Shown here one piece after another: positions 28,380 through 34,950 of a stretch of DNA of 64,000 bases. This stretch comes from Escherichia phage Mangalyan, in the sequence record OR449013; one strand, 5' to 3'. The notes beneath the pieces were generated by a model that did no database searches, was not told the DNA's origin, and saw only the letters and a program-made list of their open reading frames with translations. The translations under genes were made by a program, and so were the position numbers. Every line of letters starts with the position of its first letter. The stretch's first letter is position 1.

Positions 28380-28698
28380 CGTTTATGTTCGGGCAAGGTC
28401 GCTAGTCTTGCCCCGCCATTTTCAGGCAGCTGCATGTCTCCATGCAGACCAGACTATATCTTATAAGCGACAAAAACCGCTTACCCTCCCGTTTCGAATC
28501 GCTTGATTCTACGTCTCTCGACTAGTCGTTGAACGTTCATCCTCTCGGATGCTTCGCTGCGGATTATCTAAATTAACACACTGTTACCATACCTTCGATC
28601 TCTCTTCGAAGCCTCTATAATGTTACCATGACAGGTTGGTGGTGTCAATAATAAAGATTTCCCCGCAATTAGGGAGGTTTTACGAGAGCTACAAATTA
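28380..28698 (-). ncRNA. group I intron (ORF-less) in terminase large subunit gene
   Basis: Minus-strand P (AATTGCGGGGAAA, 28656-28671), Q (AATCCGCAGC, 28551-28565), R (GTTCAACGACTAGTC, 28520-28534), S (AAGATATAGTCTGG, 28449-28462); P1 pairing exon GAGGGU with intron GCUCUC; in-frame TAA right after exon 1. Confidence 0.8.
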
Positions 28699-29124
28699 AC
28701 CCTCATCGAAGCAAACCATGGTGTACTCAAGCCCTTGGTGGTTAAGCTTATCTTGTACATACTCCATGTGGCAGTATTTTACAACAGCCCCCTTTTTGCT
28801 TCTATCCCACTTGCCAGTGTTCGGATCAAACCGTGGAAAAATGAACTTATGATCCTTCTCTCTGAACTTTGGCTTAATGTTTTCAGGCAGATCACTATAA
28901 ATAGCTACTGCTTTAGGCCATAGTCCACCCTCACCTTCCAACTGTGGGGTTGTTCTTCGGAACATAACCACAGAGCTGTGGGGGTCATCAATAATTTTAA
29001 GCGGCATCAACTGCAAGAGGAACGACTTGCCAGACCCAGCTGCACCGCCGATTACCAAAATATCTGCATCGTTTTCGAGGATCATCTTCTGCTTTTCAGA
29101 ACACGGTCCGTAAATCTTAGACAT
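28699..29124 (-). CDS. terminase large subunit, exon 1 (ATPase domain)
   Basis: Walker A GGAAGSGKS and Walker B VCFDEG; ORF terminates in intron. Confidence 0.8.
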
Positions 29125-30472: not shown

Positions 30473-30571
30473 GGTGCTAGGTGATGGAATCGAACCATCT
30501 ATGTATTCAACGACTACCTCGTCTATTTTCAGGATTAAAAATCCTCGCCCTTGCCAAAGGGCTTACCTAGC
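30473..30571 (-). ncRNA. atypical 99-nt tRNA-like gene (Lys-type UUU anticodon loop, ~30-nt variable region)
   Basis: Acceptor GCTAGGT/ACCTAGC, D-arm GCCC-TTTGGCAA-GGGC, anticodon loop TTTTTAA, canonical T-arm GATGG-TTCGATT-CCATC, but ~30 nt lie between anticodon stem and T-stem. Confidence 0.45.
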
Positions 30572-30965: not shown

Positions 30966-31040
30966 TGGCACCCCGTACTGGACTCGAACCAGTGTCAACG
31001 GCTTAGAAGGCCGCTGCTTTATCCACTAAGCTAACAGGGC
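30966..31040 (-). tRNA. tRNA-Arg (anticodon TCT)
   Basis: Acceptor GCCCTGT/ACGGGGT, anticodon stem GCGGC/GCCGT with loop CTTCTAA, T-loop GGTTCGAGTCC. Confidence 0.8.
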
Positions 31041-31098
31041 ACTGGGTGGCTTTCTTTTACACCTTAGCCGCCAGAAAAGGTGGGAGACCATGTTTACA

Positions 31099-31127
31099 AT
31101 ATTACACTGTTAAGCAAAGTTTGTCAA
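31099..31127 (-). promoter_or_regulatory. sigma70-like promoter upstream of tRNA cluster (TTGACA-17-TAATAT)
   Basis: Minus-strand TTGACA (31127-31122) and TAATAT (31104-31099), ~55 nt upstream of tRNA-Arg. Confidence 0.5.
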
Positions 31128-31136
31128 GAAAATATT

Positions 31137-31475
31137 TTAGCTATTGCTAACAGGCTGTATTTCTGTAGTAAATGGCATAAAAGGTGCTGGTTTTTCAGCC
31201 TCTTCTACTACCACCTCTTCCTCTTCACCAAACATCTCATCATATTCTTCCTGCATTCGGTCTGCCTTATCAAGAACATACTCTGCAATGCTTTGACGAA
31301 TATTTTGTTTGGTTTTCGGGTCCAACATCAGCTCTCTTAAAACTTTGTGAGCTTCTGGAACCATCGCTATAAAAGATTCCTTCATATCAAGGATGTTCTT
31401 CTCTAGCTGAATGGCGTTGGACTCCTCTTTCAGAGGTCTGCCTCTACGGCGACGCTTTTTAGTTGTATCCGCCAT
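31137..31475 (-). CDS. hypothetical basic DNA-binding protein (possible small terminase subunit or regulator)
   Basis: ATG at 31475 with GGAGGAAA SD (track ORF extends spuriously to 31595); N-terminal KKRRRRGRP basic tract, acidic C-terminus. Confidence 0.4.
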   Translation of the reverse strand: MADTTKKRRRRGRPLKEESNAIQLEKNILDMKESFIAMVPEAHKVLRELMLDPKTKQNIRQSIAEYVLDKADRMQEEYDEMFGEEEEVVVEEAEKPAPFMPFTTEIQPVSNS

Positions 31476-31486
31476 GTTTCCTCCAT

Positions 31487-31498
31487 TATCACGTGATA
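31487..31498. promoter_or_regulatory. perfect 12-bp palindrome TATCACGTGATA between promoter -10 and SD (candidate operator)
   Basis: Palindrome sits between the -10 element and the SD of the 31475 gene. Confidence 0.4.
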
Positions 31499-31503
31499 GG
31501 TGG

Positions 31504-31532
31504 ATTTTATCATAGCAAATACTGATTGTCAA
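31504..31532 (-). promoter_or_regulatory. sigma70-like promoter (TTGACA-17-TAAAAT)
   Basis: Minus-strand TTGACA (31532-31527) and TAAAAT (31509-31504) upstream of the 31475 gene. Confidence 0.5.
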
Positions 31533-31534
31533 GT

Positions 31535-31760
31535 TCGCCGCAGGGTGGTATTCCCTGCGACTTGTCCAGCGTCCTGGACCAGCAAGACCAAACAAGTGGG
31601 TTACCAGAGGCCTATTACCCGCGCTTCGGCTCGACCTTGTTACAGGTTGGCTGGGGTCACATCGTCATGTGCTGGCTGCCCCTACCATTTTAAGTGTGGT
31701 GCACTATCAAGCCCTCTAAGGGGAACTCAGCCTTCTCCGAACCCTGTTTCAAAGCATCCG
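31535..31760. other. GC-rich ORF-free island A (candidate structured RNA or regulatory element)
   Basis: Visibly GC-rich versus flanks; hairpins such as GCAGGG-TGGTATT-CCCTGC; only shadow ORFs. Confidence 0.3.
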
Positions 31761-31821
31761 GAGATAAAGCCATCAAATTCATCTTTAAATTGGATATTCA
31801 TCATGATACACGAAAACAACC

Positions 31822-32064
31822 TCATTGTAAAGCACAAATAAATAAAACATACTTAATTTGTTTGTTATCAGGCTCAGGGTAGAAGTAGAAGATCTTGCTA
31901 TCACCGATCTGAACACCACCATCCCAACAGCATAGCCCATAACCTGTATTCATACAAGCTAAGTCGTTGGCAAAATCTATTGCATCATCCAGTGCACGAA
32001 ATTCACCTTCATCTTCTAAATAATCCTCATTCATGGAACGAAAAACGAGCTTAACCTTAAACAT
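31822..32064 (-). CDS. hypothetical protein
   Basis: 80-aa ORF. Confidence 0.35.
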   Translation of the reverse strand: MFKVKLVFRSMNEDYLEDEGEFRALDDAIDFANDLACMNTGYGLCCWDGGVQIGDSKIFYFYPEPDNKQIKYVLFICALQ

Positions 32065-32140
32065 AGCATTACCTGTAGACCTCGTAAGTTAAAATTGCAT
32101 CACATCATATTGCAGATCTTATCAGGTAACACTATTTTTG

Positions 32141-32329
32141 TCAACAGATTCCGGCCTTATCCTTCCTGTCTGCGTATTCTTTAATCGCAACCTCATCTGC
32201 ATTAGTGACCAGGTCTTCAAAGTAACTCTCAAGCTCCTCGTCAATGTCAGGAGACCAGCTCTTTTTCCTGTCAGTGTGAATTGCAGACTTGTTGAACTTA
32301 TTACAGTTCTTTGCTACCGGGTTGTTCAT
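32141..32329 (-). CDS. hypothetical protein
   Basis: 62-aa ORF, coupled to upstream gene. Confidence 0.3.
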   Translation of the reverse strand: MNNPVAKNCNKFNKSAIHTDRKKSWSPDIDEELESYFEDLVTNADEVAIKEYADRKDKAGIC

Positions 32330-32339
32330 TAAGCGCTCC

Positions 32340-32918
32340 TCAGCGTTCGTAGTAGATTTTATTTAACATTACCTCATCTTTTGCAGAAAGAATACCGAGA
32401 TATGCATCACCGAATCTACCTGCAACAACCTCTGCATGATACATCACTTCGTTAATATCGTCAAGAGTGATAACTGGATGACCGTATCTCTCTGAGTATT
32501 GTCTCAGAGTGCGATGTAGAGAGTCATCATCATAGGCAGACTTTTTAATATCACAAACACGACGAATAGCCTTGATGTCGAAAAACCCTGTACGATACCA
32601 ACCAAGAAAAAGGTTTCGTGCAGTGTCAACATCCACATCAATACCATCAAGAACCTTATCTACAAGATAGCTGTCATCCTTTGGACCTGCTTCCTTAGTG
32701 CGAATGTAGTTGCCATCTTTTCCAGGTGACAGCTCCTTCTCATCACCAACCTGCATGCCATCATTTGGCGGTGTTAACCACTTATCCGGATGCTTACGAT
32801 CACGAGCGTTAGAATGATTACGCTGGAAACCGGGCTTCCACTTGAAAGTTTTCTCCATCTGTTCTTCATTCTGATAACGTTTTGCAATCTTTTCACGGTC
32901 ATCTTTGCGTGAACCCAT
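32340..32918 (-). CDS. hypothetical protein
   Basis: 192-aa ORF with GAGGAGG SD. Confidence 0.45.
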   Translation of the reverse strand: MGSRKDDREKIAKRYQNEEQMEKTFKWKPGFQRNHSNARDRKHPDKWLTPPNDGMQVGDEKELSPGKDGNYIRTKEAGPKDDSYLVDKVLDGIDVDVDTARNLFLGWYRTGFFDIKAIRRVCDIKKSAYDDDSLHRTLRQYSERYGHPVITLDDINEVMYHAEVVAGRFGDAYLGILSAKDEVMLNKIYYER

Positions 32919-33039
32919 AGCTGCCTCCTCTTCAAGTTATAGAAAAACTCACTGTATCGCTTTGTAACGAGCTTTTCTATCAAACTGGTGCGATTGCATT
33001 ACCTGGTATAGTTTATATAGCTGTGGAGCGATTTAGGGG

Positions 33040-33290
33040 CCTTCTTGTCAGTTTCCACACATAAACTTCATCCAAGCTCGCGCGGGAGACTCTCAACCGA
33101 CTCCTTACGGCGCTGGCAAGCTTTCGTCGGTGGTCCACATCAGTGCTCGGCCTTTGGCCTGCGCTATAGCTTCGCTCCCACACATGTTAACAGACCTGCA
33201 TGTGTGCACTTCTGTTATTGTGTGCACCAAGGAGGCCCGGCATCTCGCCCCTCGTAGGCGAGTGCCAATGAAGGGCCGACACTGCCCATA
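33040..33290. other. GC-rich ORF-free island B (candidate structured RNA or regulatory element)
   Basis: Visibly GC-rich versus the adjacent AT-rich segment; several hairpins (e.g. CTCGCC-CCTCGTA-GGCGAG at ~33244-33262); only a low-complexity shadow ORF. Confidence 0.3.
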
Positions 33291-33300
33291 GTAAGTAATA

Positions 33301-33420
33301 AATTTAAAACATGGTACTTAGGATCTAGTATATTCTACATAAGTTAAGTATATGTACTTAGTACCATAAGTACTAGATCTTTTATTTTTTTATTATTTAG
33401 TTATTTTAGTTATATTCTTT
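33301..33420. promoter_or_regulatory. AT-rich segment with inverted repeats (candidate DNA unwinding element or promoter region)
   Basis: Inverted repeat GATCTAGTA (33322-33330) / TACTAGATC (33371-33379), repeated GTACTTAG motifs, poly-T/A tracts. Confidence 0.4.
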
Positions 33421-33423
33421 ATG

Positions 33424-33505
33424 TGTCCGTATCACGGACAGTTAGTGTCCGTATTACGGGCAGATGTGTCCGCGTGACGGACAGTAGTGTCCGTATCACG
33501 GACAG
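33424..33505. repeat. four tandem 17-bp palindromes (TGTCCGT-N3-ACGGACA) at 21-22-bp spacing
   Basis: Copies at 33424-33440, 33446-33462, 33467-33483, 33489-33505 (first and fourth identical); a degenerate fifth follows. Confidence 0.75.
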
Positions 33506-33579
33506 TTAATAGTATCCGTTCCATGGCGAACATAAAACATACGAATCCTTATAGTATAGATATTTAAGTTTTTACTGGT

Positions 33580-33930
33580 CTAACCAGTTGTTGACATCCG
33601 AATAACTTCTTCTGGTGGCAAAACTTTGGAAAATGTGCATCTTTTACCTCTCCCTTGTGTGGATGTTTCAACCACTCCTGCACATTCTAAAGTTTTAACG
33701 CACGCTGCTGCTTTTGTTTTCTTTATCCCAACATCTGCTGCAATTTTCCTTGTGCTTGGTGTGAAGCGTGAATTTCCTCCAAGCTTATACCAGTTGTGCA
33801 GGTAGCAGTATACGATCTTGTCATACAAGTCAAGAACAACAACCTCCCCAGTTGTGTCATTCAAAACTTTTGACATAGATAGTATTTCAAGGGGGACTTT
33901 AAGATATAGCAGCTTATCCCCATCTTTCAT
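33580..33930 (-). CDS. hypothetical DNA-binding protein (candidate binder of the adjacent palindromic repeats)
   Basis: 116-aa ORF with AGGAG SD; helix-turn-helix-like segment TPSTRKIAADVGIKKTKAAACVKTLECAGVV; repeats lie ~75 bp 3' of its stop. Binding is inference. Confidence 0.4.
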   Translation of the reverse strand: MKDGDKLLYLKVPLEILSMSKVLNDTTGEVVVLDLYDKIVYCYLHNWYKLGGNSRFTPSTRKIAADVGIKKTKAAACVKTLECAGVVETSTQGRGKRCTFSKVLPPEEVIRMSTTG

Positions 33931-33977
33931 ATCTCCTGATTCTCCTTGTGTGGCAATTTTCTTTAAAATAGCAGGGA

Positions 33978-34532
33978 TTACTCCCTACTGTCAATATCAA
34001 AACTCATTGCAATACGGTATGCCTCCTCTAATGGTAAGAGTCTCCCCCACACATCCCAACCGACATCAAGCTGCCTGCCAAACAACTGTTGTGTGGTTCC
34101 GTGAGCATGACCGAACAGTTGGACTGATCCGTGAGGCTTTCTGTTCCACTTTGCAAACTGGTAATGGCTCATACAGATCAAATTCTTGTTGTGGCGAAGC
34201 TCGTAATAATCTACAACCTCATGACCGAACTCTTTCATAATTCTGACAGTCGTCCTTGTGTCATGGTTGCCACGAACAAGAATAATATGTCCGTTCAACA
34301 TATTTAGAATATCTGGAAGTAAGTTGTTGATATTCTTATCATTAGTGCACGCAATATCTCCCAAGTGGAACACAGTGTCTGCAGGTGACACAACAGAGTT
34401 CCACTTGGCGATGATTCCCGCATTCATACTGTCAAGATTGTGATCATACTGAGATCTGTGTTTTTGACATGAATCAAACTCCATGACCCGCTGATGGAGA
34501 AAGTGTGTGTCGCTTGTTACAAAGTATTTCAT
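33978..34532 (-). CDS. calcineurin-like metallophosphoesterase (putative polynucleotide 3'-phosphatase)
   Basis: ATG at 34532 with GAGGA SD (track ORF starts upstream); motifs SDTHF, GDI, GNHD; starts 7 nt after the kinase stop. Confidence 0.6.
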   Translation of the reverse strand: MKYFVTSDTHFLHQRVMEFDSCQKHRSQYDHNLDSMNAGIIAKWNSVVSPADTVFHLGDIACTNDKNINNLLPDILNMLNGHIILVRGNHDTRTTVRIMKEFGHEVVDYYELRHNKNLICMSHYQFAKWNRKPHGSVQLFGHAHGTTQQLFGRQLDVGWDVWGRLLPLEEAYRIAMSFDIDSRE

Positions 34533-34539
34533 ACATTCC

Positions 34540-34950
34540 TCATTTAAGTTTAATGCAGTTTTTAAGCTGGCGTTCCATACGATCCACAACCTTGTCTGGA
34601 ACATCATGAATGCTTTTATTACCGTGGCGGTTTTCAACCACGATCACGGTATAACTATACCCATGACTGATTGCCATGTCAACATATTCCTGCACATGTT
34701 TTTCTTTTGTAAACGTATTACTTACCACGATACGGTCGTATCCCATACGCATCATATCTTCTACGTTATCTTTGCACCATTTTGCTGCGAGTGTTACTTT
34801 ACTTGCATCCCAGTTGTAATTGCCGTCATCGTCATACCAGAACATGTCGTTCTCAAAATGTGGATACAGACCCTCTAAAGATAGCGCATTTGCCAGTGTT
34901 GATTTGCCAGACCCTGGTAGACCACGCACGATATATAGCATTTTAGACAT
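34540..34950 (-). CDS. polynucleotide 5'-kinase-like P-loop protein
   Basis: ATG at 34950 with GGAGGG SD; P-loop GLPGSGKST resembles the T4 Pnk kinase domain. Confidence 0.6.
   Translation of the reverse strand: MSKMLYIVRGLPGSGKSTLANALSLEGLYPHFENDMFWYDDDGNYNWDASKVTLAAKWCKDNVEDMMRMGYDRIVVSNTFTKEKHVQEYVDMAISHGYSYTVIVVENRHGNKSIHDVPDKVVDRMERQLKNCIKLK

What the first reader, a model, noticed from the sequence alone, without database searches (positions are those of the whole stretch)
33424..33505. Array of four tandem palindromic 21-22-bp repeats
Four copies of TGTCCGT-N3-ACGGACA (first and fourth identical, second and third with 1-2 changes) are spaced 21-22 bp apart, about two helical turns, with a degenerate fifth copy. 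This is not explained by any ORF and has the geometry of a cooperative dimer-binding array: operator, iteron-type origin or centromere-like site. It lies ~75 bp downstream of a 116-aa putative helix-turn-helix protein and next to an AT-rich palindromic segment, which would suit a replication origin or a regulatory switch.
Basis: seen in the sequence. Interest (0 to 1): 0.7.

Follow-up and report, generated by a model that had tools for sequence, protein, structure and literature searches.

The report
Candidate replication origin of rV5-like phages
The four palindromic repeats are real and occur once in the genome of an rV5-like E. coli phage, beside its most AT-rich stretch and a small gene resembling a known origin-binding protein, so they most likely mark the phage's still-undefined replication origin.

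Summary
Four 17-bp palindromes (TGTCCGT-N3-ACGGACA) sit 22, 21 and 21 bp apart at 33424-33504. The window is a Vequintavirus (rV5-like E. coli myovirus). The palindrome occurs nowhere else in the window or in the complete 138-kb rV5 genome.

Across 21 genus members the half-sites are about nine times less variable than synonymous codon positions. Copy number changes only by whole units (4, 3 or 2). The "fifth copy" is the most variable stretch of the region and is a relic.

The array abuts the most AT-rich 130 bp of the genome. That block holds the genome's only exact match to the E. coli oriC unwinding 13-mer, GATCTnTTnTTTT.

The adjacent 116-aa winged-helix protein is a homologue of the N-terminal domain of Vibrio PLE RepA (PDB 4RO3), an initiator shown experimentally to bind iterons. 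Three sister genera carry a diverged homologue with different palindromic sites and the same 13-mer, T-rich tract, sites layout.

Best reading (about 0.55): an iteron-plus-unwinding-element origin with a minimal initiator that has only the DNA-binding domain. Main rival: an operator or roadblock array. No paper found in the searched library assigns it a function, and nothing here is experimentally tested.

The parts
33424..33440 (.). Palindrome 1 (TGTCCGTATCACGGACA), perfect; the copy next to the AT-rich block
   Evidence: the junction with the AT block (TTCTTTAT|GTGTCCG) is kept in all 21 relatives, including copy-number variants
33446..33462 (.). Palindrome 2 (TGTCCGTATTACGGGCA), one half-site mismatch
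   Evidence: the mismatch is reverted to a perfect palindrome in JEP1 and bov11CS3
33467..33483 (.). Palindrome 3 (TGTCCGCGTGACGGACA), one half-site mismatch
   Evidence: in the 89%-identity lineage it reads TGTCCGC-GTG-GCGGACA, which is again a perfect palindrome
33488..33504 (.). Palindrome 4 (TGTCCGTATCACGGACA), perfect
33513..33529 (.). Degenerate 'fifth copy': an unconstrained relic, not a conserved site
   Evidence: 4 mismatches; pi 0.27 over 33509-33535, about twice the synonymous level
33293..33422 (.). AT-rich block, candidate DNA-unwinding element; nearly invariant in the genus
   Evidence: 21% GC; lowest-GC 130-bp window of the whole rV5 genome (19.2% against 25.4% for the next); pi 0.027 against 0.12-0.14 at third codon positions
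33376..33388 (+). GATCTTTTATTTT: exact match to the E. coli oriC 13-mer consensus GATCTnTTnTTTT, with its T-rich strand running toward the array
   Evidence: Only exact match on either strand of the 64-kb window and of the 138-kb rV5 genome; found in 0.065% of shuffles of the AT block; consensus taken from PMC4451416
33322..33334 (+). Second 13-mer-like element GATCTAGTATATT (2 mismatches). It is part of the motif GATCTAGTATATTCTAC, a near-identical form of which (GATCTATATATTCTAC) occurs in Seunavirus 4MG
   Evidence: unique in the rV5 genome
33311..33379 (.). Interleaved inverted repeats inside the AT block (ATGGTACTTAG/CTTAGTACCAT and GATCTAGTA/TACTAGATC), with two GATC sites
   Evidence: (I8)
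33580..33930 (-). Gene for the 116-aa winged-helix protein (rV5 ORF79). It is a homologue of the PLE RepA N-terminal iteron-binding domain and the presumed cognate binder of the array
33965..33994 (-). Sigma-70-type early promoter (rV5 P76) that drives the winged-helix gene. Its transcripts would run on through the array and the AT block
   Evidence: TTGACA-18-TATTTT with an upstream TG; annotated as P76 in rV5; no terminator-like site in 32800-34100
32996..33292 (.). Conserved GC-rich non-coding block (56-58% GC) on the far side of the AT block. Its role is unknown: possibly a structured RNA or leader, possibly part of the origin region
   Evidence: pi 0.071; no Rfam family; covariation inconclusive

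Best explanation
The array is the iteron set of a phage replication origin.

Proposed mechanism:
1. The 116-aa winged-helix protein encoded just upstream is made early from a sigma-70 promoter. This step is read from the sequence.
2. The protein binds as a dimer to each 17-bp palindrome. This step is inferred.
3. The sites repeat every 21-22 bp, so two to four dimers would sit on one face of the helix. This follows from the geometry. They could then form a wrapped nucleoprotein complex, which is inferred by analogy with the lambda O-some.
4. The complex would destabilise the directly adjacent 130-bp AT-rich block. That block is the least stable duplex of the genome and carries an oriC-type 13-mer. 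The destabilisation is inferred.
5. The phage's own replisome would then load on the opened DNA: a T7-like primase-helicase, an SF1B helicase and a T7-like polymerase. This step is inferred.
6. Early transcription reading through the element from the upstream promoter may assist opening. This step is speculative.

The same binding may also throttle read-through transcription. The two roles are not exclusive.
For: (1) Geometry. Four palindromes have 7-bp arms whose centres are 10 bp apart, and they are spaced 22, 21 and 21 bp.

(2) Uniqueness. With at most 1 mismatch the palindrome occurs only here in the window and only at 65152-65232 in the complete rV5 genome. It has no match in 5,426 complete E. 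coli genomes.

(3) Selection. Among 21 genus members pi is 0.0155 in the half-sites, 0.054 in the central N3 and 0.027 in the AT block. It is 0.12-0.14 at third codon positions of the flanking genes. Copy number changes only by whole units: 4 copies in 16 genomes, 3 in 4 and 2 in 1. Both junctions are preserved in every case.

(4) Unwinding element. The adjacent block is the lowest-GC 130-bp window of the genome (19.2% against 25.4% for the next). It holds the only exact genome-wide match to the oriC 13-mer GATCTnTTnTTTT.

(6) Comparative evidence. Seunavirus, Mydovirus and Henunavirus carry a diverged homologue (35% identity over 48 aligned residues). Next to it are different palindromic sites, TGCTCAA-N-TTGAGCA twice at 23-bp spacing. 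The order and polarity are the same as here: GATCT 13-mer-like elements, then a T-rich tract, then the sites. DNA-binding domain and origin also covary among PLEs (PMC8263062).

(7) Position. The array lies 1.5 kb from the major divergent strand switch, which is also the global minimum of cumulative GC skew in rV5 (66,689).

(8) Precedent. Lambda ori has four dyad-symmetric iterons next to an AT-rich region, two iterons suffice for function, and Stx phages have six (PMC7466680).
Against: - No experiment shows binding or origin activity.
- The protein is only the DNA-binding domain. It lacks the C-terminal domain that RepA_N-type initiators are thought to use for replisome recruitment.
- The PHROG label 'replication initiation protein' is itself computational.
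- In the sister genera the sites lie between an early promoter and the gene, which equally suits plain autoregulation. There the gene also heads a PRPP-synthetase/NAMPT operon.
- GC skew in phages follows transcription direction, as the rV5 authors noted.
- T7-like replisomes can start from promoters without an initiator protein, and large lytic phages often rely on several origins or on recombination.
- No DnaA box or IHF site is present.
Confidence: 0.55

Rival explanations
1. Operator or roadblock array. The winged-helix protein is a transcription regulator. By occupying the four palindromes just downstream of its own gene it blocks or tunes read-through from the early promoter into the downstream genes (ORF77-74 and the tRNA cluster). 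Alternatively it controls an unrecognised promoter in the AT-rich block. Replication is not involved.
For: - Palindromic sites for a dimeric winged-helix protein are typical of repressors.
- The array lies inside a co-directional transcription unit with no terminator between the gene and the array.
- In the sister genera the homologous sites sit between a sigma-70 promoter and the gene's ribosome-binding site, the classic autoregulatory position.
- Many GenBank records call the protein a putative transcriptional regulator.
Against: - No sigma-70-like promoter lies in or next to the array.
- The site is unique in 138 kb, so there is no regulon.
- The near-invariance of the adjacent 130-bp AT block, and its unique oriC-type 13-mer, are left unexplained.
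- The most specific relative of the protein is an iteron-binding initiator, not a regulator.
- Iteron-binding Rep proteins commonly also autoregulate, so evidence for regulation does not exclude an origin.
Confidence: 0.25
2. RNA-level element. Transcribed as the 3' untranslated region of the winged-helix mRNA, the palindromes fold into stable hairpins. These would protect the message, act as a processing site (for example for RNase III), or attenuate read-through.
For: The gene-sense RNA of 33415-33515 folds at -43.1 kcal/mol, z = -7.3. The array is transcribed in the sense direction from the upstream promoter, with no intervening terminator.
Against: - The strong fold is an automatic consequence of the palindromes.
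- There is no T-run, and no terminator-like site was found.
- All four copies keep the same half-site sequence, while the loop (N3) and the spacers diverge. This is true both between copies and between phages. Selection therefore acts on sequence identity, as for protein recognition, and not merely on pairing.
- The mismatches in copies 2 and 3 give C-A oppositions in one or other strand.
- The 21-22-bp helical phasing has no meaning for RNA.
Confidence: 0.07
3. Packaging recognition site (pac). The array is where a small terminase or accessory DNA-binding protein starts headful packaging.
For: - A Vequintavirus is reported to package by a headful (pac) mechanism with partial permutation (PMC13211470).
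- Repeated binding sites for a winged-helix terminase subunit are known from lambda cosB (recalled knowledge).
- Three Logan contigs end inside or at the edge of the array, and one GenBank record starts at 33508.
Against: - The array is about 4.3 kb from the large terminase gene, separated from it by a tRNA cluster and several early genes.
- The protein resembles a replication initiator domain, not a terminase subunit.
- Contig breaks at a copy-number-polymorphic repeat are expected from assembly alone.
- The adjacent unwinding-type AT block is not a feature of pac sites.
Confidence: 0.05
4. Neutral tandem duplication with no function.
For: Copy number varies between isolates. Several annotators marked it only as a repeat_region found by Tandem Repeats Finder.
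Against: Half-site diversity is about nine times lower than synonymous diversity. The neighbouring relic copy shows what unconstrained sequence looks like here (pi 0.27). The array is retained in all 21 genomes examined.
Confidence: 0.03

Closest known systems
Vibrio cholerae PLE satellite replicon: RepA (RepA_N-type initiator, NTD structure 4RO3) plus its iteron origin
   Same: The 116-aa protein is a sequence and fold homologue of the PLE RepA N-terminal DNA-binding domain. PLE RepA binds semi-palindromic direct repeats in a non-coding origin region next to its gene. Among relatives, DNA-binding domain and origin covary, as seen here between Vequintavirus and its sister genera.
   Different: PLE RepA has a C-terminal domain thought to recruit the replisome. 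The phage protein stops after the DNA-binding domain. PLE has three iterons of about 30 bp, and characterised RepA_N iterons converge on a poly-A tract. Here there are four 17-bp palindromes with a 3-bp centre and no A-tract. PLE is a satellite that borrows ICP1 functions. This is a 138-kb virulent phage with its own replisome.
Bacteriophage lambda ori (four iterons plus AT-rich region, O protein)
   Same: Both have four tandem dyad-symmetric initiator sites directly flanked by an AT-rich unwinding region. In lambda, dimers bind each site, two sites next to the AT region are enough, and relatives differ in iteron number. That parallels the natural 2-, 3- and 4-copy variants here.
   Different: Lambda ori lies inside the O gene. 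Here the array is in an intergenic region downstream of the gene. The protein shows no Phage_rep_O domain and has no counterpart of the O C-terminal domain that binds the helicase loader P. No P-like loader gene is annotated in rV5.
E. coli oriC DNA-unwinding element (13-mers L, M, R)
   Same: There is one exact 13-mer and one with two mismatches against GATCTnTTnTTTT. Both start with a GATC Dam site, and the T-rich strand runs toward the initiator sites. The polarity of oriC is recalled from the known sequence.
   Different: No DnaA box, even relaxed, and no IHF site is present in the intergenic region. The initiator sites belong to a phage winged-helix protein, not to DnaA.
Staphylococcal multiresistance plasmid RepA (RepA_N family; 4PQL, 4PT7, 5KBJ, 4PTA)
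   Same: The N-terminal domains are winged-helix dimers that bind iterons. After 4RO3 they are the next best Foldseek matches (E 6e-4 to 4e-2, TM 0.50-0.55).
Repressor operator arrays such as lambda OR/OL
   Same: Several 17-bp dyad-symmetric sites lie side by side for a small dimeric HTH protein encoded next door.
   Different: No promoter overlaps the sites. The sites lie at the 3' end of the gene rather than at its promoter. There is one locus only in the genome.

Membership tests
Iteron-type replication origin (initiator-binding repeats plus unwinding element) | Several tandem copies of an initiator-binding repeat in helical phase | tested here: met
   Four units at 22, 21 and 21 bp; 2-4 units in relatives
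Iteron-type replication origin (initiator-binding repeats plus unwinding element) | Directly adjacent AT-rich, easily melted region | tested here: met
   The 130-bp block next to palindrome 1 is the lowest-GC window of the genome and carries an oriC-type 13-mer
Iteron-type replication origin (initiator-binding repeats plus unwinding element) | Cognate initiator gene encoded at or beside the origin | tested here: met
   Met by homology only: the adjacent gene encodes a homologue of the PLE RepA DNA-binding domain
Iteron-type replication origin (initiator-binding repeats plus unwinding element) | The initiator binds the repeats | not testable with these tools
   Needs EMSA or footprinting. Indirect support comes from the protein and sites changing together between genera
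Iteron-type replication origin (initiator-binding repeats plus unwinding element) | Replication starts here (marker-frequency peak, bubble arcs, or autonomous or phage-dependent replication of the cloned element) | not testable with these tools
   No replication data are available. The rV5 paper did not find the origin
RepA_N-type initiators (Pfam PF06970; PLE RepA by structure) | N-terminal winged-helix DNA-binding domain of the RepA_N/DnaD-NTD fold | tested here: met
RepA_N-type initiators (Pfam PF06970; PLE RepA by structure) | Match to the family's sequence model | tested here: not met
   RepA_N is not among the Pfam hits at E<=1. DUF6945 scores 27.4 bits against a cut-off of 28, and HTH_36 24.5 against 25. 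Orthologues in three other phage genera (Mydovirus, Henunavirus, Plateaulakevirus) pass the DUF6945 cut-off
RepA_N-type initiators (Pfam PF06970; PLE RepA by structure) | C-terminal, host-specific domain for replisome recruitment | tested here: not met
   The protein is 116 aa and ends just after the wing. Some 128-217-aa relatives carry an acidic ...(I/A)PF tail instead
RepA_N-type initiators (Pfam PF06970; PLE RepA by structure) | [quoted passage not shown] | tested here: inconclusive
   Semi-palindromic direct repeats: yes. Central poly-A tract: no, the centre is ATC, ATT or GTG. Feature as described in PMC7145576
Lambdoid origin (ori-lambda with O protein) | Iterons and AT-rich region located inside the initiator gene | tested here: not met
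   The array lies 75 bp beyond the stop codon, in a 660-bp intergenic region
Lambdoid origin (ori-lambda with O protein) | Initiator with a Phage_rep_O N-terminal domain and a P-binding C-terminal domain | tested here: not met
   No Phage_rep_O hit. The protein has a single domain
DnaA-dependent origin (oriC type) | Cluster of DnaA boxes | tested here: not met
   No TTATCCACA with at most 1 mismatch and no TTWTNCACA in 32919-33579
Repressor operator array | Sites overlap or flank a promoter they control | tested here: inconclusive
   No sigma-70-type promoter in or beside the array, and all annotated rV5 early promoters carry TTGACA. Phage-specific middle or late promoters are unknown and could not be scanned
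Intrinsic transcription terminator | GC-rich hairpin followed by a T-run | tested here: not met
   0 terminator-like sites in 32800-34100. The palindromes are followed by GTTA, GATG or GTAG
Partition centromere (parS type) | Adjacent ParA/ParB-type partition genes | tested here: not met
   None in the neighbourhood or anywhere in the rV5 annotation
Terminase recognition site (pac or cosB type) | Lies in or beside the terminase genes and coincides with packaging ends | tested here: not met
   It is about 4.3 kb from the large terminase gene. Positions of the ends are not available

The most novel reading that the evidence does not exclude
A winged-helix protein consisting of the DNA-binding domain alone is the complete initiator of a 138-kb virulent phage. 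It has no helicase-loader or recruitment domain. Two to four dimers phased on one face of the helix would be enough to open an oriC-type 13-mer element. A self-loading T7-type primase-helicase, perhaps helped by the phage SF1B helicase as in PLE replication, would then enter without a dedicated loader. This would be the most stripped-down initiator and origin pair described for a large lytic phage. It would also show the RepA_N/PLE-RepA lineage at work in virulent enterobacterial phages across a whole subfamily.
Probability: 0.3. Interest if true: 0.6.

Novelty: new member of a known kind. Interest (0 to 1): 0.45.

Why it matters
rV5-like phages (Vequintavirinae) are among the commonest broad-host-range coliphages isolated for therapy and biocontrol. 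Their replication origin has never been defined: the original genome paper looked for it with skew analysis and found only transcription switches.

A precise candidate of about 220 bp, together with its binding protein, makes the question directly testable by marker-frequency sequencing, EMSA and phage-dependent plasmid amplification. It would also give phage engineers a defined cis element.

The finding extends the PLE-RepA/RepA_N type of iteron-binding domain from satellites and Gram-positive plasmids to virulent enterobacterial phages. It raises the question of how an initiator without a recruitment domain can work.

Tried and rejected
- **Rfam.** Gathering-threshold scan of the window and E-value scan of 31000-34000. 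Nothing credible over the array, the AT block or the GC-rich block. The rli43 hit (21 bits against a gathering score of 100) is chance.
- **IMG/VR scan for relatives of the protein.** No confirmed locus.
- **Word-indexed and exhaustive protein searches with the single sequence.** Only relatives of at least 87% identity, plus a handful of weak HTH_36 proteins. The family became visible only after adding the sister-genus homologues.
- **First AF2 model from 5 near-identical sequences.** Unusable, pLDDT 45. A 23-sequence alignment gave pLDDT 78.6.
- **The motif GATCTAGTATATTCTAC as a phage late promoter.** Rejected, because it is unique in the rV5 genome.
- **Host DnaA and IHF involvement.** No sites found.
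- **Host transcription-factor sites (CRP, LexA, TyrR spacing).** Considered from memory. The half-site spacing does not fit. Not pursued.
- **Plasmid and E. coli genome searches for similar iterons.** The only hit is a whole Vequintavirus genome deposited as a 'plasmid'.
- **RNA structure in the GC-rich block.** RNAalifold on both strands gave only 1-2 compensatory pairs among 18 sequences. Inconclusive.
- **Cumulative GC skew.** The minimum at rV5 66,689 lies 1.5 kb from the array. It coincides with the strand switch, so it cannot separate replication from transcription.
- **The Schumacher 2014 RepA structure paper.** Could not be retrieved.

Full report
**1. What is in the sequence.**
The region 33423-33508 holds four in-register 21-22-nt units, with start-to-start spacing of 22, 21 and 21. 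Tandem Repeats Finder reports period 21 x 4.0. Each unit contains a 17-bp palindrome, TGTCCGT-N3-ACGGACA. Copies 1 and 4 are perfect. Copies 2 and 3 each have one half-site mismatch. With at most one mismatch these four are the only matches in the 64-kb window. With up to three mismatches there are 7 matches against 1.6 expected, and no shuffle reached 7. The half-site centres are 10 bp apart, which fits a dimer reading two successive major grooves. The palindromes repeat every two helical turns, so all bound dimers would face the same side of the DNA. The exception is the 'fifth copy', discussed in section 3.

**2. Where we are.**
The window is a Vequintavirus, an rV5-like E. coli myovirus. 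It is 99.8% identical over 1.8 kb to record MG065635 and 98-99% identical to many named coliphages.

All genes around the array are on the minus strand. In order they are:
- an AAA kinase and a metallophosphoesterase;
- the 116-aa ORF (33580-33930; rV5 ORF79);
- a 660-bp intergenic region;
- ORF77 and several small ORFs;
- a cluster of seven tRNA genes.

In plus-strand coordinates the intergenic region consists of:
- a GC-rich block, 32996-33292, at 56-58% GC;
- a very AT-rich block, 33293-33422, at 21% GC;
- the four palindromes;
- a short variable stretch;
- the stop codon of the ORF.

A sigma-70-type promoter (TTGACA-18-TATTTT, rV5 P76) precedes the ORF. No terminator-like site lies anywhere in 32800-34100. 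Some GenBank records mark the array as a bare 'repeat_region' from Tandem Repeats Finder. I found no record or paper that gives it a function. The rV5 genome paper searched for the origin by skew analysis and found only transcription switches.

**3. Uniqueness and selection.**
In the complete rV5 genome (137,947 bp, loci L024-L026) the palindrome with at most one mismatch occurs only at 65152-65232. It is not a dispersed repeat, and it is not the operator of a regulon. The array plus the AT block has no match in 5,426 complete E. coli genomes.

I aligned the region from 21 genus members, including a lineage whose protein is only 87-91% identical. Nucleotide diversity was as follows:

| Segment | pi |
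|---|---|
| Half-sites | 0.0155 |
| Inter-palindrome spacers | 0.024 |
| Central N3 | 0.054 |
| AT block | 0.027 |
| GC-rich block | 0.071 |
| Third codon positions of the two flanking genes | 0.12-0.14 |
| Supposed fifth copy (33509-33535) | 0.27 |

The palindromes and the AT block are as constrained as second codon positions. The fifth copy is a decaying relic.

Copy number differs between isolates only by whole units: four copies in 16 genomes, three in 4 (A135, JES2013, bov11CS3, nomo) and two in 1 (navn). The junctions to both flanks are unchanged in every case.

**4. The neighbouring protein.**
- Pfam places it just under the cut-offs of DUF6945 (27.4 against 28 bits) and HTH_36 (24.5 against 25).
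- PHROGs gives family 12838, labelled 'replication initiation protein', at 5e-80. It also gives weaker matches to the N-terminal roughly 100 residues of longer initiator families 8102, 428 and 270.
- By sequence it is nearly an orphan. Only the 118 Vequintavirus records have it in the phage collection. Only relatives of at least 87% identity appear among 5.8 billion proteins. An exhaustive HMMER pass over 1.8 billion representatives adds a few weak HTH_36 proteins.
- A model built from a 23-sequence alignment that includes sister-genus homologues is confident (pLDDT 78.6, pTM 0.76). It shows a winged helix preceded by a beta-hairpin.

4RO3 is the N-terminal domain of RepA of the Vibrio cholerae satellite PLE. 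PLE RepA is a RepA_N-type initiator. [quoted passage not shown]

The phage protein has only this domain. The C-terminal domain that RepA_N proteins are thought to use for replisome recruitment is absent.

**5. The AT-rich block.**
It is the lowest-GC 130-bp window of the entire rV5 genome, at 19.2% against 25.4% for the next. It contains GATCTTTTATTTT at 33376-33388. This is the only exact match on either strand of the window or of the rV5 genome to the E. coli oriC unwinding-element consensus GATCTnTTnTTTT (consensus from PMC4451416). The match arose in 0.065% of shuffles of the block. A second element with two mismatches lies at 33322-33334. The T-rich strand of both runs toward the palindromes. 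From memory of the oriC sequence, that is the same polarity as the oriC 13-mers have relative to the DnaA boxes. There are no DnaA boxes or IHF sites, so a host-DnaA origin is not indicated.

**6. Comparative evidence beyond the genus.**
In Seunavirus 4MG, Mydovirus KpS8 and Henunavirus pEp_SNUABM_01 a 105-107-aa homologue sits exactly at the divergent strand switch. It shares 35% identity with the window protein over 48 aligned residues (E 5e-6). It is a DUF6945 protein and matches the N-terminal third of the 337-position PHROG 8102.

Upstream of that gene, in all three genera, the order is:
1. an early sigma-70 promoter;
2. one or two GATCT-initiated 13-mer-like elements;
3. a T-rich tract of about 60 nt;
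4. two sites built on the palindrome TGCTCAA-N-TTGAGCA, spaced 23 bp;
5. the ribosome-binding site.

The cis layout and its polarity (13-mer, then T-rich tract, then dyad sites) are the same as in the window. The site sequence differs together with the protein. The same modular covariation of DNA-binding domain and origin is documented among PLEs (PMC8263062).

More distant 182-217-aa relatives in metagenomic phage contigs again lie at a divergent switch. One of them lies 1.4 kb from a family-A DNA polymerase gene, next to a T-rich block followed by two repeats spaced 22 bp.

In rV5 the array is 1.5 kb from the major divergent switch. That switch is also the global minimum of cumulative GC skew (66,689). 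This is consistent with an origin but not independent evidence, because skew follows transcription in these phages.

**7. Most likely mechanism.**
The early-expressed winged-helix protein binds as dimers to the palindromes. This is inferred from homology, geometry and covariation. The phased array forms a compact complex on one face of the helix, by analogy with the lambda O-some. That complex promotes melting of the adjoining AT block at or near the 13-mer. The phage's own T7-like primase-helicase (ORF230), SF1B helicase (ORF237) and T7-like polymerase (ORF228) then take over (gene identities). Read-through transcription from the upstream promoter may help opening. The same occupancy may limit read-through into the downstream genes.

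Lambda gives the closest architectural precedent. It has four 19-bp imperfect inverted-repeat iterons bound by O dimers next to an AT-rich region. Two iterons suffice for function, and Stx phages carry six (PMC7466680). That matches the viable 2-, 3- and 4-copy natural variants here. I put this reading at about 0.55. Binding of the array by the adjacent protein, taken alone, is more likely than that.

**8. Rivals.**
- *Pure operator or roadblock role (0.25).* This fits a dimeric winged-helix protein, the position of the sites in the sister genera (between promoter and gene) and the absence of a terminator. It leaves unexplained the invariant, uniquely AT-rich, 13-mer-bearing neighbour, the single occurrence in the genome and the initiator homology. 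It is also compatible with an origin, since Rep proteins often autoregulate.
- *RNA hairpin role in the 3' UTR (0.07).* The fold energy (-43 kcal/mol, z -7.3) follows trivially from the palindromes. Selection acts on the shared half-site sequence rather than on pairing alone.
- *Packaging site (0.05).* It is 4.3 kb from the terminase gene, and the protein is not terminase-like.
- *Neutral repeat (0.03).* Contradicted by the conservation data.
- *Centromere.* No partition genes are annotated in rV5.

**9. Comparison with known systems and novelty.**
It works like an iteron-plus-unwinding-element origin. It is not a lambdoid origin: it lies outside the gene and the protein has no Phage_rep_O domain. 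It is not a DnaA origin, because there are no DnaA boxes. The protein fails the Pfam RepA_N sequence model and lacks the C-terminal domain. I therefore file it as a relative of the PLE RepA N-terminal domain (DUF6945) rather than as a RepA_N family member.

The kind of system is well known. This instance is new in three respects: it is a candidate origin for a whole phage subfamily in which none has been defined, its initiator has only the DNA-binding domain, and it carries an oriC-type 13-mer. I rate it a new member of a known kind, with interest 0.45.

**10. Limits.**
Everything about binding, unwinding and initiation is inference. The PHROG label is computational. Diversity within the genus is low, so the conservation statistics rest on 21 related genomes. 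The sister-genus sites were identified by eye and by the repeat finder, not by experiment.

Noticed in passing
window 32996-33292: Conserved GC-rich non-coding block (56-58% GC against 43.6% for the genome) between the AT block and ORF77. It includes a long imperfect hairpin (GGCCCGGCATCTCGCC...GGCGAGTGCC...GGGCC). rV5 and A135 carry an 18-nt deletion in it. rV5 annotates a doubtful 56-aa ORF78 here. No Rfam match. RNAalifold gives only 1-2 compensatory pairs, so a structured RNA is neither shown nor excluded.
   Followed up: partly
window 31480-31800: A second GC-rich stretch (54-56% GC) without a credible ORF, upstream of the 113-aa gene next to the tRNA cluster. It could be another structured RNA or leader.
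   Followed up: no
window 30473-30571 (minus strand): A 99-nt tRNA-like gene for which ARAGORN reports a four-base anticodon (atcc). Rfam tRNA scores 37.5 bits. It is annotated 'tRNA-OTHER' in phage magaca and is not annotated in rV5. It could be an intron-containing or otherwise unusual tRNA.
   Followed up: no
window 28430-28708 (minus strand): Group I intron (Rfam 83.8 bits) in the large terminase region. In rV5 the terminase CDS is annotated as a three-piece join with an HNH homing endonuclease inside.
   Followed up: partly
This could mean relaxed constraint plus repeat-associated slippage or recombination.
   Followed up: partly
L008, L014, L015 (contig ends); GenBank MG065672 start, corresponding to window 33508: Three of nine Logan contigs carrying the gene end inside or at the edge of the array, and one GenBank record starts exactly at its edge. 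Copy-number heterogeneity within samples probably breaks the assemblies. A physical end was not excluded.
   Followed up: partly
L036 (CP057073.1, pRHB39-C03_2): A 137,565-bp circular 'plasmid' of a cattle E. coli isolate is a complete Vequintavirus genome, 98% identical over the array and AT block. This is either phage carried in the culture (carrier state) or contamination co-assembled with the host.
   Followed up: partly
search hits for window 32900-34700: Eighteen records named 'Campylobacter phage' (at least one flagged UNVERIFIED, host C. jejuni) match the rV5-like E. coli phage sequence, those listed at 91-99.8% identity. The host assignment looks doubtful.
   Followed up: no
L032 1396-1782 (Aeromonas phage 4L372D gp060); proteins P0009, P0011: Longer relatives of the winged-helix protein (128-217 aa) end in an acidic tail ...D-E-x-(I/A)-P-F, which resembles the C-terminal tip of bacterial SSB. 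This hints at recruitment of SSB-binding replication proteins. The rV5-type protein lacks the tail.
   Followed up: no
L027 1-1986, L030 1201-2715, L031 1201-2703: In Seunavirus, Mydovirus and Henunavirus the homologous winged-helix gene is the first gene of a unit that continues with ribose-phosphate pyrophosphokinase and nicotinamide phosphoribosyltransferase (NAD salvage). A weak Pfam hit to 'wHTH-PRTase associated' was seen.
   Followed up: no
L026 4014-6617 (rV5 104,014-106,617): A 2.6-kb stretch with no annotated gene at the convergent strand switch of rV5. It contains two of the ten most AT-rich windows of the genome. It lies outside the window given.
   Followed up: no
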